A stretch of DNA of 43,998 nucleotides from a virus (IMGVR_UViG_3300020576_007250), one strand, 5' to 3'; positions 15,335 through 19,939 are shown, counted from the first letter of the stretch. Numbers and translations are program-made. The notes: generated by a model not told the origin, from the letters alone.

Positions 15335-15655
15335 TCACAGTCGTTCAACAACGGTATCTGAGGACGCGACCCAAACAGGTCGACCTTCCCACAACACCAG
15401 ATAAAATTCATTGGCCGGTGGTGAGAAACCATACGGCCCACGTCCTTTTTTCCTCATGGCTGCATTGAATGCATCAGGCTGGCTGTTGATGAAGAGGGCG
15501 TGAGTTTCATTTGGAATATCACAAATGACAATATCCAATTCTTCTCCCAACAACGCATTGAATGACCTCGGAACGTTCCTCGCCTTGATGCTTGAACCTT
15601 CACGACGTTCAGTCAATTTGACCATGGTTCCGGGTTCAAGTTTCGTCGTCATCAT
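15335..15655 (-). CDS. PGDxV-family small protein (PGT variant)
   Basis: LEPGTMVKLTERREG. Confidence 0.4.
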   Translation of the reverse strand: MMTTKLEPGTMVKLTERREGSSIKARNVPRSFNALLGEELDIVICDIPNETHALFINSQPDAFNAAMRKKGRGPYGFSPPANEFYLVLWEGRPVWVASSDTVVERL

Positions 15656-16019
15656 TCACCGTCACGTCTCGTTCTGTCGGCATGCTCGTGATGTTGGCAC
15701 CCTTCGATTTCGCCCATTCCTTGATGAAGTTATCGAATGTCAGGCGAATGATTCCCATGTCTAACAGGCTGAGATTTTTCAAGTGATTGCTAGAGATGGT
15801 GAATGATGCAGCCTCGACGACGGCGCCGACGGGATTCTCAATGTCATATGCGGGTCTCAACCGATACTTGGGTTCTTGGTGTATGTCGGTTGCCGCCGCA
15901 GGAATGACCTGCACGACCTGATAGATAAGGCGCCGTTGAAAAGGTGAGTACTCAGTCACCTTGCCTGTCCACATCACAATGTCACCAACGTTTAGCTTTT
16001 CAAGTGGCTTCGGTGTCAC
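15636..16019 (-). CDS. PGDxV-family small protein
   Basis: LNVGDIVMWTGKV ... LIYQVVQV. Confidence 0.4.
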   Translation of the reverse strand: MTPKPLEKLNVGDIVMWTGKVTEYSPFQRRLIYQVVQVIPAAATDIHQEPKYRLRPAYDIENPVGAVVEAASFTISSNHLKNLSLLDMGIIRLTFDNFIKEWAKSKGANITSMPTERDVTVNDDDET

Positions 16020-16082
16020 TGTGGGTCACCCATATTGAGAAGGTGGAATCTATCAATGGTCATGTGCAGGTTATATCGTGTG

Positions 16083-16517
16083 TCACTCGTGGGCATTATC
16101 AACCTGTTGAGCAGTCTCTGAGACCATCCCACCCTTGACGGCCAGATCGCGAATTATGTTACCTAATTCAGCATACTTCGTGGCGATATCGAGGAGTTCA
16201 ATCTTTTTCAAATTACGTAATTCATCATGATAAATGATCAATGTTGAATCTGCACCGCCTGGTGCCTTTCCTTTGCGTGTTGGAAAGAAAGTGAAAATCG
16301 GCCGAATTCGCAAATAACCACGAACTTCCATGGGCTTCATTTTCTTTCCCGACACTGGATGAAAAACTGTTTCATATATGCTAAGACGTTTTTCCTTAGC
16401 TATGGGCGATTCATAATTCATCGTAATCTGGTAGATGACACCACCCGTTGATTCCTTGTCAGAAGCGAAGGTGACGATATCACCAATTTTCAAACCAATT
16501 TTTTCAAGTGTATTCAT
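16083..16517 (-). CDS. PGDxV-family small protein
   Basis: LKIGDIVTFASDKESTGGVIYQITMNY. Confidence 0.4.
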   Translation of the reverse strand: MNTLEKIGLKIGDIVTFASDKESTGGVIYQITMNYESPIAKEKRLSIYETVFHPVSGKKMKPMEVRGYLRIRPIFTFFPTRKGKAPGGADSTLIIYHDELRNLKKIELLDIATKYAELGNIIRDLAVKGGMVSETAQQVDNAHE

Positions 16518-17245
16518 GACTCATCATCTTCCGGATCTGAGGGTTGATGGGATGGGCTCGTCGTCACTGTTTTCGATGTCGGTATCTGCCACTTTTGCGA
16601 AAGAGGATTTGCTACTGACAATTGTGTTTGAGCTTGTTGTTGTTGTATCACGCTGCGTATCAATTCTGCTTGTCTCGCTTTCATGCGTGATTTCTTTGTG
16701 TTTTCGTCTTCGACTACGGGTGGAGCGAATATATCCTTGACGATACGTCTGATACCAAATGACCAATTCTTGAATGATTTTACTTTCGACCAACACTTGC
16801 GAAATGTCGAAGACAAACATCTGTAGGATCTCCAAAACATTTTAACCGGCCAATGACCTGTGTTGCATCGCTCTGTTAATTTGACGTCTGGATACTGATA
16901 ATCCATATGAAAGATCAGACCTTGAGGAAGTTTCATGGGTTGAACAGTTACCATTTGTTGAGCGAGGGCTGGATAATTGACTCGCCTCATGATGGGAAAC
17001 ACGAAGTTGCTGAAGATGTCTTGACTGTAGGGTTCAACCGACCACAGAATGGTCAGCTGTTCATCGTTGACTGCGATGACAATTCCTTGACCTCCGTCCT
17101 TGATGTGCTTTACCTGATCACCAGGCTTGAGGATGTCGATACCACCTTCACGAATAAAAGGCCATGGGTCGGCATAATCCGTCGGAGGAAGCGTGGATGG
17201 ATATTTGTCGCTGTACGTGCGATCGTATGTTTTAAGGCTGCTCAT
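16514..17245 (-). CDS. PGDxV-family protein with acidic/Ser-rich C-terminal extension
   Basis: LKPGDQVKHIKDGGQGIVIAVNDEQLTILW; ATGA coupling both sides. Confidence 0.45.
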   Translation of the reverse strand: MSSLKTYDRTYSDKYPSTLPPTDYADPWPFIREGGIDILKPGDQVKHIKDGGQGIVIAVNDEQLTILWSVEPYSQDIFSNFVFPIMRRVNYPALAQQMVTVQPMKLPQGLIFHMDYQYPDVKLTERCNTGHWPVKMFWRSYRCLSSTFRKCWSKVKSFKNWSFGIRRIVKDIFAPPVVEDENTKKSRMKARQAELIRSVIQQQQAQTQLSVANPLSQKWQIPTSKTVTTSPSHQPSDPEDDES

Positions 17246-17544
17246 TTACGTCCACACTTGCAGTTTGATTCTCGACACCAACGTTGACCCGTGACTGTAC
17301 ACAAACGTTCAACTGAATTCTTAGGAAGATAAAAATCTTCTTCTATAGACATCGGATTCCAACGAGGTTCGATAGACCACAACACCAAGAAGTCAGATTT
17401 GTTACGAGCTATGAGAACTCCAAACCCACCTTCTCTTTCATGTGTCACCAAATCTCCTGGTCTTTTTCGATGAAATGGGCGTTTCCATTTTTCAATGCCA
17501 ACGGTATGGATGTTCCCAGAATCTGGGTGCAATCGTAAGGTCAT
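17242..17544 (-). CDS. PGDxV-family small protein
   Basis: KRPGDLVTHEREGGFGVLIARNKSDFLVLW. Confidence 0.45.
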   Translation of the reverse strand: MTLRLHPDSGNIHTVGIEKWKRPFHRKRPGDLVTHEREGGFGVLIARNKSDFLVLWSIEPRWNPMSIEEDFYLPKNSVERLCTVTGQRWCRESNCKCGRK

Positions 17545-18235: not shown

Positions 18236-18504
18236 TCAGAATTCAACGATTCCCATTCTTCAAGCGTGTGAAAGTCTCGTAGTCGTTCCCAATTGATGGG
18301 CTTCAAACACTCATTGTGAATGCATAATGCATTCCATCCCTTAGGTCGCCACACGTATCCTCGTGCGGTTTTTTCTTCTGGGGTTTGATGCCAACCGACC
18401 AACAACAAGAGATCTTTTTCACGATCTCGGACAACATATGTCCCAGGTTGAAAGCGTTTTTGGACCTCACGACGAGATTGCGATTTTTTGTTTGTGTGTA
18501 TCAT
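18232..18504 (-). CDS. PGDxV-family small protein
   Basis: FQPGTYVVRDREKDLLLLVGW. Confidence 0.4.
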   Translation of the reverse strand: MIHTNKKSQSRREVQKRFQPGTYVVRDREKDLLLLVGWHQTPEEKTARGYVWRPKGWNALCIHNECLKPINWERLRDFHTLEEWESLNSE

Positions 18505-18527
18505 CCCTAATGATGCATGTGTTTAAC

Positions 18528-18833
18528 CTAATTGGTGTTCTCAAGAAGTTCTGAAAATTCAAACCACTCGCGATTGAACCAGACTAATTTGGATTCAAAC
18601 AAAATAACGCACCAATGTTGTGTAGTTGCACCCACCCTGTAAGGTCCTGGATCGTTTTTGGAAATTAATGTGAATGTGTCACCCACTCTTATGTTCACGT
18701 AACCGCCTACTAAAAATTGTCGTCGACCTCGTTCTGTGACACACTGAAGGACCCATCCTCCTGAACCAACCGAGAAACGCCAACACCAAAGTTGACCAGG
18801 TCTAAGATCAATATCGACCAGGCGTTTTTCCAT
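18528..18833 (-). CDS. PGDxV-family small protein
   Basis: LRPGQLWCWRFSVGSGGWVLQCV. Confidence 0.4.
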   Translation of the reverse strand: MEKRLVDIDLRPGQLWCWRFSVGSGGWVLQCVTERGRRQFLVGGYVNIRVGDTFTLISKNDPGPYRVGATTQHWCVILFESKLVWFNREWFEFSELLENTN

Positions 18834-19305
18834 ATGCCCTACCTTCTATTCCATAGACGATGTCGAATTGAGGTTCTGGTCGACGCCTTTTGATTTCAAT
18901 CCATGGATCGCCTTTGGGATCAGGATTTTGATGCATGATGACGTCTGTCACGTCTGATTGTTCATTCATCAAATTTTCAAGGCTACCATACCTGGTCATG
19001 AATTCCGGGAATGTCAGGTAGTCAGGATCAGATTCTGATGACCATTGTGCTCGTAACGTTTGTGGCGGAAGTGTCGGAGTTTTAAACTGTCGAGGTGACT
19101 TTGACCAGATGACCTCGCACAGCACTTTGCCAAGATCTTCTTCCTGTCGACGAGAGATGCACATGCCATATGAGTGAAGATCATGTTTGTGTCGAACCGC
19201 CTCACCCGGGATGATGCATCGAGGATCGTCACTGCGTCCAGCCCATTTTCTGCTGGGATCGATCGCTATCAAATCGCGTAAATTGTAAGTCTCTAAGTCG
19301 CTCAT
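18808..19305 (-). CDS. PGDxV-family protein
   Basis: IIPGEAVRHKHDLHSYGMCISRRQEEDLGKVLCEVIW. Confidence 0.4.
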   Translation of the reverse strand: MSDLETYNLRDLIAIDPSRKWAGRSDDPRCIIPGEAVRHKHDLHSYGMCISRRQEEDLGKVLCEVIWSKSPRQFKTPTLPPQTLRAQWSSESDPDYLTFPEFMTRYGSLENLMNEQSDVTDVIMHQNPDPKGDPWIEIKRRRPEPQFDIVYGIEGRAYGKTPGRY

Positions 19306-19598
19306 TCACTTCTACGCTTTGCTTCGTCAGAAATAAAAACACCAAGTTTTGCATACTCAGACGCTAAATCAATGAGTGATTGAGGTTGACAGTGGGCACT
19401 AGAAAGAGAACGTTTGCGGCGACCTTTAAAATCAGGTGACAACATGCCCAAGATGGGTGTCAGTTTTAATATTGATGTTCCGCCCCAAAATTTAGTGTTT
19501 TGTGTGACAGCAGTGACCCGATAAAGAATTCCCGGTCCCACATCATTGTACGCACATGTGCAGAGTTGACCGACTTGCCAGACGTGTTCTTCACTCAT
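19302..19598 (-). CDS. PGDxV-family-related small protein
   Basis: VWQVGQLCTCAYNDVGPGILYRVTAV; start set at ATG 19598 overlapping upstream TGA (ATGA). Confidence 0.35.
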   Translation of the reverse strand: MSEEHVWQVGQLCTCAYNDVGPGILYRVTAVTQNTKFWGGTSILKLTPILGMLSPDFKGRRKRSLSSAHCQPQSLIDLASEYAKLGVFISDEAKRRSE

Positions 19599-19939
19599 TT
19601 TCTTTTCGCTTGTAACAGGATCAAGACGCCATGGCGGGACAACACAGTAAAAGTCGTCAAGTGATCCCAGTCTGATACGCCGGGACAACCATCGATTTTA
19701 CTAAGGACGAGCAGCAATCCATTGGCCAATGTCAACATTGAAGCGCGTTTACGTTGTTGTTCAGTTCCTTCACAGTATGCTTTAAAGTCTTTTGACCTAA
19801 TTGCATGAATTCCCGGTGATCGAACCAGGTCACCAGGCTTGACGTGTGTCCAATACAGGCTTTCTGTGTCACTTTTTTCAAAGTTATGGTACACCAAAGC
19901 CATGACCAAACAATATTCTCTGGAGCTGCATGAGTACAT
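19595..19939 (-). CDS. PGDxV-family small protein
   Basis: HVKPGDLVRSPGIHAI; first gene of minus-strand run. Confidence 0.4.
   Translation of the reverse strand: MYSCSSREYCLVMALVYHNFEKSDTESLYWTHVKPGDLVRSPGIHAIRSKDFKAYCEGTEQQRKRASMLTLANGLLLVLSKIDGCPGVSDWDHLTTFTVLSRHGVLILLQAKRK

What the first reader, a model, noticed from the sequence alone, without database searches (positions are those of the whole stretch)
15335..19939. Same family saturates the window: a second, minus-strand run of 12 copies plus ~10 dispersed copies (~35 total)
Twelve consecutive minus-strand ORFs from 19939 down to 15335 are joined by 4-nt or short overlaps. Each carries xPGDxV, then after ~10 residues G-[ILV]3, then after 6-10 residues [ILV][ILV]W (for example KPGDQVKHIKDGGQGIVIAV...ILW and RPGDLVTHEREGGFGVLIAR...VLW). 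More copies sit elsewhere at 6154, 6386, 6682, 6947, 7156, 7929, 9558, 10691, 22797, 24305 and 34736, including one in the GC-rich segment. One family therefore occupies roughly a fifth of the coding capacity. Expansion on this scale is rare and points to a central, probably host-directed role. The minus-strand subfamily pattern (GDxV...GxVxxV...W) is close to the Hva1-TUDOR/KOW barrel signature.
Basis: seen in the sequence. Interest (0 to 1): 0.75.

Follow-up and report, generated by a model that had tools for sequence, protein, structure and literature searches.

The report
Small barrel proteins carrying capsid-protein snippets
The twelve back-to-back small genes are real and conserved, but they are not one family. 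The interesting part is five of them: they share a small barrel domain, and in four of the five it is fused to a short copy of a conserved piece of a T4-type phage head protein, an arrangement I found no description of.

Summary
Observation partly confirmed. Twelve consecutive minus-strand ORFs (15335-19939) exist, joined mostly by ATGA or short overlaps. A PG[DEQT]x[hydrophobic] motif is about 11-fold enriched in the window's genes.

"One family of ~35 copies" is not supported. Profile-profile comparison aligns the groups only over the PGD motif (probability at most 46%). The run is a conserved 12-gene module of at least six ortholog groups, found in the same order in five other metagenomic huge-phage contigs, one of 369 kb.

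Five run genes ("Q") share a ~70-aa N-terminal beta-barrel. Four carry tails copied from conserved segments of T4-type head proteins:
- ORF4: the capsid gp23 93-134 (Gol/EF-Tu) region.
- ORF6: the capsid C-terminus.
- ORF10: a degenerate mid-capsid segment.
- ORF5: a portal-like 14-mer.

At least 150 related clusters in metagenomes carry such tails.

Best reading: these are carriers of mimic peptides that compete for whatever binds those head-protein segments. The partner is unknown and the function is untested.

The parts
19595..19939 (-). ORF12, 114 aa, ortholog group G12 (VKPGDLV...). First gene of the module.
   Evidence: Orthologs at 34-40% identity in L006, L007 and L008, and in L091. 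No Pfam or PHROG hit.
19302..19688 (-). ORF11, family T. Probably starts at the internal ATG at 19598 (98 aa), which gives an ATGA overlap with the ORF12 stop.
   Evidence: T-family HMM E 5e-34. Alignment A10. Junction sequence.
18808..19305 (-). ORF10, 165 aa. Q barrel (residues 1-73) plus a degenerate copy of capsid segment B ('TLRAQWSSESDPDYL') plus a tail.
   Evidence: Q HMM E 1e-19. Orthologous to P0147, whose tail 'TTRKLRAKWSAE' matches the MCP motif. The B-tail profile has T4 gp23 254-283 as top PDB hit at E 0.03. ORF10 itself gives no direct MCP hit.
18528..18833 (-). ORF9, 101 aa, ortholog group G9 (LRPGQLW..., second motif VGDTF).
   Evidence: Orthologs at 35% identity in L006, L007 and L008, and in L091. 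No family hit.
18232..18504 (-). ORF8, 90 aa, ortholog group G8 (SRRxVQRRFPPGxF...EEWE).
   Evidence: Orthologs in L001, L006, L007, L008 and L091. No family hit.
18035..18235 (-). ORF7, 66 aa. Q barrel only, no tail.
   Evidence: Q HMM E 3e-19. Its orthologs L008:8465-8752 and L006:2737-2976 carry a portal-like tail, with Pfam Portal_T4 E 0.002 and 0.006.
17541..17927 (-). ORF6, 127-128 aa. Q barrel plus a copy of the last ~55 residues of a T4-type major capsid protein (tail at about nt 17565-17723).
   Evidence: MCP profile HMM E 4e-13, hmm positions 565-615 of 618. 42% identity over 55 aa to LR756508 MCP residues 490-541, E 2.8e-4 at database size 1e11. Pfam Gp23 E 0.0027.
17242..17544 (-). 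ORF5, 100 aa. Q barrel plus a portal-like 14-mer RWNPMSIEEDFYLP (about nt 17323-17364).
   Evidence: 9 of 14 residues identical to RYNPMSVEEDYFIP of a portal confirmed by Pfam (L060:3-1226), 34 bits. Relatives P0099 and P0058 score 41-42 bits. The match is short, so this is suggestive only.
16514..17245 (-). ORF4, 243 aa. Q barrel (1-72), then a copy of the capsid segment equal to T4 gp23 93-134, the Gol region (residues 77-125, about nt 16871-17017), then conserved RCNxGPW..MFWR and W/R/S-rich helices (121-212).
   Evidence: Pfam Gp23 E 2.5e-7, 30.9 bits. PHROG_138 major head protein E 8.6e-7. PDB T4 gp23 93-134 E 1e-4. MCP HMM E 6e-12. AF2 model. Twenty orthologs found.
16083..16517 (-). ORF3, 144 aa, family T (LKIGDIV..., C-terminal helix LGNIIRDLA).
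   Evidence: T HMM E 5e-30. No PDB or Pfam hit.
15636..16019 (-). ORF2, 127 aa, family T.
   Evidence: Orthologs at 36-50% identity in L001, L006, L007 and L008. T HMM E 3e-41.
15335..15655 (-). ORF1, 106 aa, ortholog group G1. Last gene of the module.
   Evidence: Orthologs in L007 (46% identity) and L006. Its best hhalign partner is family P, at only 46% probability.
30739..33857 (+). Plus-strand array of 12 P-family genes (stand-alone SH3b-like domains). A separate family from the run.
24305..24631 (-). 13th P-family gene, immediately downstream of the GH5 cellulase-like gene.
   Evidence: P HMM E 6e-20. Neighbouring gene identified.
19978..20008 (-). Strong RNA hairpin between the stop of the MVP-like gene and ORF12. 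Possibly a terminator or processing site that bounds the module.
   Evidence: Folding energy -29.7 kcal/mol, z-score -5.15, 0 of 200 shuffles fold as well.

Best explanation
SHOWN
- The run is a conserved 12-gene module of an uncultivated huge-phage lineage, seen in forest-soil and other environmental metagenomes. It is built from several small beta-rich protein families that are unrelated by sequence.
- Its core is five 'Q' proteins. Each begins at residue 1 with the same ~70-aa five-stranded barrel (MSxLKTY...PGDxVxH..GxGxVxAv...VLWSxxP).
- Four of the five continue into a short tail copied from a highly conserved segment of a T4-type head protein:
  - ORF4: the gp23 93-134 segment. This falls in the first quarter of gp23, where the Gol region lies. 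The exact Gol coordinates are from my memory.
  - ORF6: the capsid C-terminus.
  - ORF10: a degenerate copy of gp23 ~254-283.
  - ORF5: a portal-like 14-mer.
- Across metagenomes the same barrel carries one of these or further tails.

INFERRED
- The barrel is a carrier. The tail is a molecular mimic that occupies the site of whatever normally recognises that segment of the capsid or portal protein.
- The genes sit among small, early-style, translationally coupled genes, away from any head-gene cluster. The Gol segment is a known ligand of EF-Tu, and the gp23 N-terminus is known to target fusion proteins to GroEL. I therefore favour a competitor or decoy role towards a non-capsid partner: a host sensor of conserved head proteins, EF-Tu, a chaperonin, or the head proteins of a rival phage.
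- The partner and the effect are not shown.
For: MODULE AND ORTHOLOGY
- Same gene order in the window, L001, L006, L007, L008 and the 369-kb IMG/VR contig L091.

Q FAMILY
- Iterated HMM joins the five window genes.
- 184 cluster representatives reach E<=1e-3 in 1.84 billion proteins, most matching from residue 1.
- There are 3-6 Q paralogs per genome.

TAILS
- Pfam Gp23 hits 55 of 143 representatives, best E 1.4e-14.
- A profile of 61 full-length capsid proteins hits ORF4 at E 6e-12 (positions 79-127), ORF6 at E 4e-13 (565-615 of 618), and B-type relatives at E 1.5e-7 to 1e-4.
- T4 gp23 93-134 is the top PDB hit for the ORF4 family, E 1e-4.
- ORF4's segment is 50-64% identical to that of real 540-680-aa capsid proteins in the 80 retained metagenomic loci. 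More than 584 candidate stretches passed tblastn, and none of the 80 has a Q domain.
- Portal-type tails.
- One protein (P0043) fuses Q+B to Q+C.
- The tail is the most conserved part of ORF4 orthologs; most of the invariant and near-invariant columns lie in it.
- AF2 models the barrel (pLDDT ~90) but leaves the tail unstructured (pLDDT 44-53), as expected for a peptide that folds only on a partner.

CONTEXT AND LITERATURE
- No head gene lies within +/-10 kb in any of the six genomes.
- The Gol region binds EF-Tu domains II-III and is the most conserved part of gp23 (PMC3014915).
- The gp23 N-terminus targets fusion proteins to GroEL (PMC3012670).
- The window encodes its own GroEL.
- Capsid proteins are common triggers of bacterial immunity (PMC9712102).
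Against: - No experiment and no complex prediction links any tail to any partner.
- Extra Gol-like peptide would be expected to activate a Lit-type protease, not block it.
- From my own knowledge, sensors such as Avs recognise folded proteins rather than linear peptides.
- Capsid and portal are the two proteins that start head assembly, which fits an assembly role equally well.
- The lineage's own capsid and portal genes were never recovered, so I cannot say whether the tails copy self or foreign proteins.
- ORF10's capsid tail is inferred only through orthologs. ORF5's portal match is 14 residues.
- Seven of the 12 genes (T, G1, G8, G9, G12) remain wholly unexplained.
- Expression timing is unknown: there is no T4 late-promoter motif and no informative promoter scan.
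Confidence: 0.4

Rival explanations
1. Head-assembly factors or prohead components. The capsid- and portal-derived tails dock by strand or helix complementation onto the phage's own capsid and portal subunits. They would cap, chaperone or nucleate assembly, or target the Q barrel into the prohead.
For: - The tails come from the two proteins that initiate T4-type head assembly.
- The copied segments are the conserved core segments of the fold.
- A Q+B/Q+C fusion exists.
- A phage GroEL is encoded in the same window.
- In T4, diverse internal proteins are encapsidated through a short conserved N-terminal capsid targeting sequence (PMC3012670). The Q N-terminus is conserved from residue 1.
Against: - The module is never next to head genes in six genomes.
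- Its small, overlapping-gene layout resembles early or accessory regions.
- Copy number and tail repertoire vary between relatives, from 3 to 6 Q genes. That is unusual for core assembly machinery.
- No T4 late-promoter motif is present.
Confidence: 0.28
2. One reading: one ~35-copy family of SH3/Tudor/KOW-like barrels, expanded in this genome for a host-directed role.
For: - The PGD-type motif is 11-fold enriched and sits near the N-terminus of about 35 small ORFs.
- Sub-threshold HMM hits of the P and Q profiles are enriched for the listed ORFs.
- P has an SH3b fold and Q is also a small barrel.
- P-type genes sit inside the homologous run in L006, L008 and L091.
- One T-family member hits the Q profile weakly.
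- A common origin at superfamily level cannot be excluded.
Against: - hhalign probabilities are at most 46% and cover only the motif.
- The full motif is in only 5 of 12 run ORFs.
- Each run gene has its own ortholog group conserved across genomes, so the run is not a recent expansion.
- The sub-threshold enrichment is circular, because those ORFs were chosen for the motif that dominates the profiles.
Confidence: 0.12
3. Debris. The capsid and portal snippets are decaying remnants of gene fragments captured by recombination or mobile elements, and have no function.
For: - A Pfam-supported GIY-YIG endonuclease gene lies about 4 kb from the module in L006.
- An unannotated 188-aa ORF is inserted inside the module in L001. 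Calling it GIY-YIG-like is my reading only.
- ORF10's tail is degenerate.
Against: - The tails are the best-conserved part of proteins spread over at least 150 clusters at 50% identity.
- The same architecture recurs with at least four different segments.
- The reading frames are intact and the order is conserved in six genomes.
Confidence: 0.05

Closest known systems
Gol region of T4 major capsid protein gp23 (ligand of EF-Tu, activator of the Lit protease)
   Same: - ORF4 and its orthologs carry a segment homologous to T4 gp23 93-134. It keeps the RRxxPxLxAxxxVxVQPMxxPxGxxF signature.
- That segment lies in the first quarter of gp23, where the Gol region is. [quoted passage not shown]
   Different: - Here the segment is not inside a capsid protein. 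It hangs on a 70-aa barrel in a 190-240-aa protein and is followed by W/R/S-rich helices.
- No EF-Tu binding or Lit activation has been tested.
- The exact Gol coordinates (about 93-122) are from my memory.
Bacterial SH3 (SH3b) cell-wall-binding domains of phage endolysins and NlpC/P60 peptidases
   Different: - P proteins are stand-alone 57-108-aa domains in a 12-gene tandem array, with no catalytic partner fused.
- No Pfam SH3 model matches.
- Outside this genome the family was found only in 2 short metagenomic contigs and as 3 weak profile hits in related loci.
- This applies to the plus array, not to the minus run.
Lineage-specific expansions of small domains in jumbo phages (for example ~35 zinc ribbons in Bacillus phage G)
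   Same: Many small single-domain genes in tandem in a very large phage genome (PMC7824862).
   Different: Only the P array (13 copies) and the Q set (5 copies) are true paralog sets. The run is a mixed, anciently conserved module rather than a recent burst.
Phage counter-defence proteins that act on sensors of structural proteins (for example DSAD1 against DSR2, which senses the tail tube)
   Same: The concept is shared: a small phage protein interferes with recognition of a conserved structural protein (PMC11087589).
   Different: No defence system, binding or phenotype is linked to the Q proteins. Q tails are literal sequence copies of capsid or portal segments, which I have not seen described for known counter-defence proteins.
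T4 internal proteins with an N-terminal capsid targeting sequence
   Same: Small, diverse phage proteins that share only a short conserved N-terminus (PMC3012670). Q proteins also start with a conserved MSxLKTY.
   Different: In the AF2 model the Q N-terminus is a strand of a folded barrel, not a cleavable leader. There is no consistent protease site. The resemblance to the T4 sequence is from my memory and was not tested.

Membership tests
   hhalign P vs Q gives 35-53% probability over 8-15 columns. All other pairs are at most 46%. The P HMM's best hit in the run is E 0.007.
G-hhh ... hhW | tested here: not met
   Present in 5 of 12 run ORFs and 0 of 11 dispersed ORFs.
SH3b (bacterial SH3) - applies to the P array | SH3b fold | tested here: met
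SH3b (bacterial SH3) - applies to the P array | Match to a curated SH3 sequence model | tested here: not met
   No Pfam family at E<=1 for the 10 members scanned.
KOW / Tudor (including Hva1_TUDOR) - applies to the Q barrel | Match to curated KOW, Tudor or Hva1 models, or to solved KOW/Tudor structures | tested here: not met
   - No Pfam hit for the window Q proteins.
- Among 143 relatives there are only single weak hits to MSSS-SH3, SH3_12, PUA_3 and DUF3553, at E 0.002-0.01, about the chance level.
- PDB profile search: Spt5 KOW at E 1.4.
- Foldseek: nothing below E 0.2.
T4 gp23-type major capsid protein (PF07068) | Score above the Pfam gathering threshold | tested here: met
   ORF4 scores 30.9 bits against a cut-off of 24.4. 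ORF6 is below the cut-off at 17.6 bits.
T4 gp23-type major capsid protein (PF07068) | Full-length HK97-type capsid protein covering the whole model | tested here: not met
   - Only model positions 4-48 of 376 (ORF4) or 314-354 (ORF6) are matched.
- In a 618-position MCP profile only 79-127 or 565-615 are matched.
- The proteins are 128-243 aa, whereas real capsid proteins are 540-680 aa.
- They are not capsid proteins. The JGI name 'Major capsid protein Gp23' for P0163 is a mis-annotation.
Gol-type EF-Tu ligand | Homology to the gp23 Gol region | tested here: met
   The ORF4 family profile aligns to T4 gp23 93-134 at E 1e-4. The Gol coordinates themselves are from memory.
Gol-type EF-Tu ligand | Binds EF-Tu domains II-III | not testable with these tools
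   Needs biochemistry or complex prediction.
T4-like portal protein (PF07230) | Match above threshold over the portal model | tested here: not met
   Only 14-23-residue tails match. Pfam gives E 0.002-0.006, 16-17 bits against a cut-off of 22.9, at model positions 284-306. ORF5's 14-mer scores 34 bits against a confirmed portal.

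The most novel reading that the evidence does not exclude
The Q proteins are a modular 'epitope display' system. One carrier barrel presents, gene by gene, the most conserved (and so most sensor-exposed or assembly-critical) linear segments of the phage's capsid and portal proteins. These would neutralise host immune sensors or host factors that read those segments, or poison head assembly of competing T4-type phages. 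That would be a previously undescribed strategy of self-mimicry in phage conflicts.
Probability: 0.3. Interest if true: 0.9.

Novelty: new variant of a known kind. Interest (0 to 1): 0.7.

Why it matters
If the tails work as mimics, this is a ready-made natural catalogue of which short segments of T4-type capsid and portal proteins are recognised by other molecules, such as EF-Tu, chaperonins, immune sensors or neighbouring subunits. It would make the long-standing question of why the Gol region is so conserved directly testable.

It also has two practical consequences:
- It corrects a database trap. At least 55 clusters of 100-240-aa proteins are flagged as 'Gp23 major capsid protein' although they hold only a 40-55-residue snippet.
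- The headline claim, one family filling a fifth of the genome, should not be propagated.

Tried and rejected
- **Split capsid gene, introns or inteins.** Rejected. The gene order is B...C...A, not A-B-C. The tails cover only about 150 of about 550 residues. Every piece starts with the same barrel, and there are no intein motifs.
- **'NPCGEI' tails as a ribonucleotide-reductase motif.** Dropped in favour of a possible portal origin. Left unassigned.
- **Tail classes 'IRDEIDQDILxDL' and 'GLISRKTLMEKLGLDP'.** No significant capsid or portal hit. Left unassigned.
- **T4 late promoter TATAAATA.** Absent. The sigma-70 and terminator scan was uninformative.
- **MVP-like protein as bait in IMG/VR.** Nothing found.
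- **Search for the lineage's own capsid gene.** The metagenome and IMG/VR scans returned only other phages' capsid genes.
- **Q core in 185,579 species genomes.** Nothing found, but only one search pattern was used.
- **Phage GenBank collection.** No DNA match. The ORF4 protein matches only the capsid gene of LR756508.
- **T family.** No PDB or Pfam relative.
- **Similarity of MSxLKTY to the T4 capsid targeting sequence.** From memory only, could not be checked, not used as evidence.
- **Literature.** Four of the six successful full-text searches bore on prior description. None found a description of the Q family.

Full report
**1. What is at the coordinates**

Twelve minus-strand ORFs of 66-243 aa fill 15335-19939. 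Five junctions are ATGA overlaps. A sixth appears if ORF11 starts at its internal ATG at 19598. The remaining junctions are overlaps of 20 and 26 nt or gaps of 23, 63 and 110 nt.

A strong hairpin (-29.7 kcal/mol, z -5.15) separates the run from the upstream MVP-like gene.

The window looks like part of a huge phage. It encodes a phage-type GroEL, AAA and DnaB/KaiC-like ATPases, a metallophosphoesterase, an IF-1-like protein, a GH5 hydrolase and an MVP-like protein. It has no tRNAs. It has no DNA match in 50,697 deposited phage genomes.

**2. Is the motif real?**

Yes, as a motif. PG[DEQT]x[VILMF] occurs 27 times in a conservative gene set, against 2.4 +/- 1.6 in shuffles.

- Strict PGDxV is in 4 of 12.
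- The three-part pattern is in 5 of 12.
- A loosened motif is in 11 of 12.

**3. Is it one family?**

No, on the evidence available.

All-against-all BLAST and iterated HMMs give separate groups:
- P: 12 plus-strand genes and 24305-24631.
- Q: 16514, 17242, 17541, 18035, 18808.
- T: 15636, 16083, 19302.

The other four run genes are singletons within the window.

Profile-profile comparison was also run with orthologs added and with a 150-sequence Q profile. It aligns the groups only over the PGD motif and the next strand, with probability at most 46%.

The structures point the same way:
- The Q barrel (pLDDT ~90 over residues 31-70) has five strands. Two of them come from the extreme N-terminus. 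It has no PDB match better than Foldseek E 0.23.
- KOW, Tudor or Hva1 membership is unsupported.

**4. The run is a conserved module**

Each of the 12 genes has orthologs at 30-50% identity in related metagenomic contigs: L001, L006, L007, L008 and the 369-kb IMG/VR contig L091.

The order is constant: G12 - [P or T] - Q(B) - G9 - G8 - several Q - Q(A) - one or two T - G1. An MVP-like or Band_7 gene lies upstream, and metallophosphoesterase and IF-1 genes lie downstream.

P-type genes sit inside the run in three relatives. The families therefore travel together without being demonstrably homologous.

**5. The unexpected finding**

*Capsid segment A (ORF4).* ORF4 hits Pfam Gp23 (E 2.5e-7) and PHROG 'major head protein' over only about 45 residues. 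With its orthologs, the match is to T4 gp23 93-134.

*Capsid segment C (ORF6).* ORF6's tail matches the last ~55 residues of gp23-type capsid proteins.

*Independent check.* A profile built here from 61 full-length capsid proteins gives E 6e-12 for ORF4 and E 4e-13 for ORF6.

*Spread of the Q family.* An exhaustive profile search with the Q barrel found 184 cluster representatives.
- 55 of 143 carry a Gp23 hit.
- BLAST against a real 544-aa capsid protein sorts the tails into three blocks: residues 70-120, 293-346 and 485-540.

*Capsid segment B (ORF10).* ORF10 belongs, through orthologs, to the middle block, but its own copy is degenerate.

*Portal segments.* ORF5 and about 14 relatives carry RYNPLSxDEDIYIP-type tails. 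Other relatives carry YxxxKLxxALKIPxxYLG tails. Both match consecutive motifs of portals confirmed by Pfam, and Pfam Portal_T4 gives E 0.002-0.006. These matches are short and count as suggestive.

*Other observations.*
- The tail is the best-conserved part of ORF4 orthologs.
- AF2 leaves the tail unstructured.
- All 80 retained metagenomic loci matching ORF4's segment are ordinary 540-680-aa capsid genes without a Q domain. ORF4 and ORF6 are therefore not capsid proteins.

**6. How it may work**

The constraints that keep these segments constant in capsid and portal proteins are also acting on the isolated tails. This argues that the tails bind the same partner(s).

Known partners of the gp23 N-terminal region are:
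- EF-Tu, through the Gol region (PMC3014915).
- GroEL (PMC3012670).

Capsid proteins are also frequent immune triggers (PMC9712102).

I commit to 'carrier plus mimic peptide acting as a competitive ligand', at 0.40. The main rival is an assembly or prohead role, at 0.28. The gene neighbourhood (small coupled genes, no head genes nearby, variable copy number) tilts me towards a conflict or host-factor role, but nothing tests it. T, G1, G8, G9 and G12 have no assignable function.

**7. Verdict**

- The one-family interpretation is not supported.
- Four of the six successful full-text searches bore on prior description, and none found a description of the Q architecture.

Noticed in passing
window 20028-22721 (-): 897-aa protein with a major-vault-protein shoulder domain (E 2e-30), vault repeats and a Band_7/SPFH region. 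It sits next to the small-gene module in this genome (window, L002) and about 2 kb upstream of it in L008. A separate Band_7 protein is present in L007 and L008. Vault-like proteins are unusual in phages.
   Followed up: partly
window 4243-5985 (+): Phage-type GroEL chaperonin (Pfam Cpn60 E 1e-65, PHROG_5725 E 1e-147). This is relevant because gp23-type capsid proteins depend on GroEL.
   Followed up: partly
window 24655-27165 (-) and 24305-24631 (-): 836-aa GH5 cellulase-like protein with a hydrophobic N-terminus, followed directly by a stand-alone SH3b-like P-family gene. This hints that P proteins bind a cell-wall or polysaccharide ligand.
   Followed up: no
window 19978-20008 (-): 14-bp-stem RNA hairpin (-29.7 kcal/mol, z -5.15) just after the MVP-like stop codon, preceded by a 12-nt palindrome AGACACGTGTCT. 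No T-run follows it.
   Followed up: partly
window 19302-19688 (-): ORF11's longest form (TTG at 19688) overlaps ORF12 by 94 nt. The internal ATG at 19598 gives an ATGA junction and aligns with the starts of the other T-family proteins, so it is probably the true start.
   Followed up: yes
window, 1-kb windows at 20-23 kb, 25-28 kb, 30-31 kb and 34-37 kb: GC content is a mosaic. These blocks run at 52-58% GC, against 43-48% for most of the rest, including the run (43-47%). Mostly they hold the larger genes.
   Followed up: no
window 845-1618 (+), 8807-9097 (+), 13554-14486 (+): A TANGO2-family protein, an ORF at the position where relatives' contigs carry a Pfam IF-1/eIF-1A-family gene (the window ORF itself was not scanned), and a glycine-rich-domain protein. 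All are odd cargo for a phage.
   Followed up: no
L001 1022-1588 (+); L006 8254-9036 (-): In L001 a 188-aa ORF is inserted inside the module just before the ORF4 ortholog. It looks GIY-YIG-like by eye but has no Pfam record. L006 has a Pfam-supported GIY-YIG gene nearby. Mobile endonucleases may reshuffle this region.
   Followed up: no
protein P0163 (JGI) and 54 other clusters: Proteins of 100-240 aa are labelled or flagged as 'Major capsid protein Gp23' although only a 40-55-residue tail matches. This is a systematic mis-annotation.
   Followed up: yes
proteins P0044, P0066, P0068, P0104, P0111: Long proteins (490-2604 aa) hit the Q profile in several short stretches. P0044, the only one read, is repetitive and matches through recurring 'VLWTTSP'-like strings. 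Probably spurious, and excluded from the counts.
   Followed up: partly
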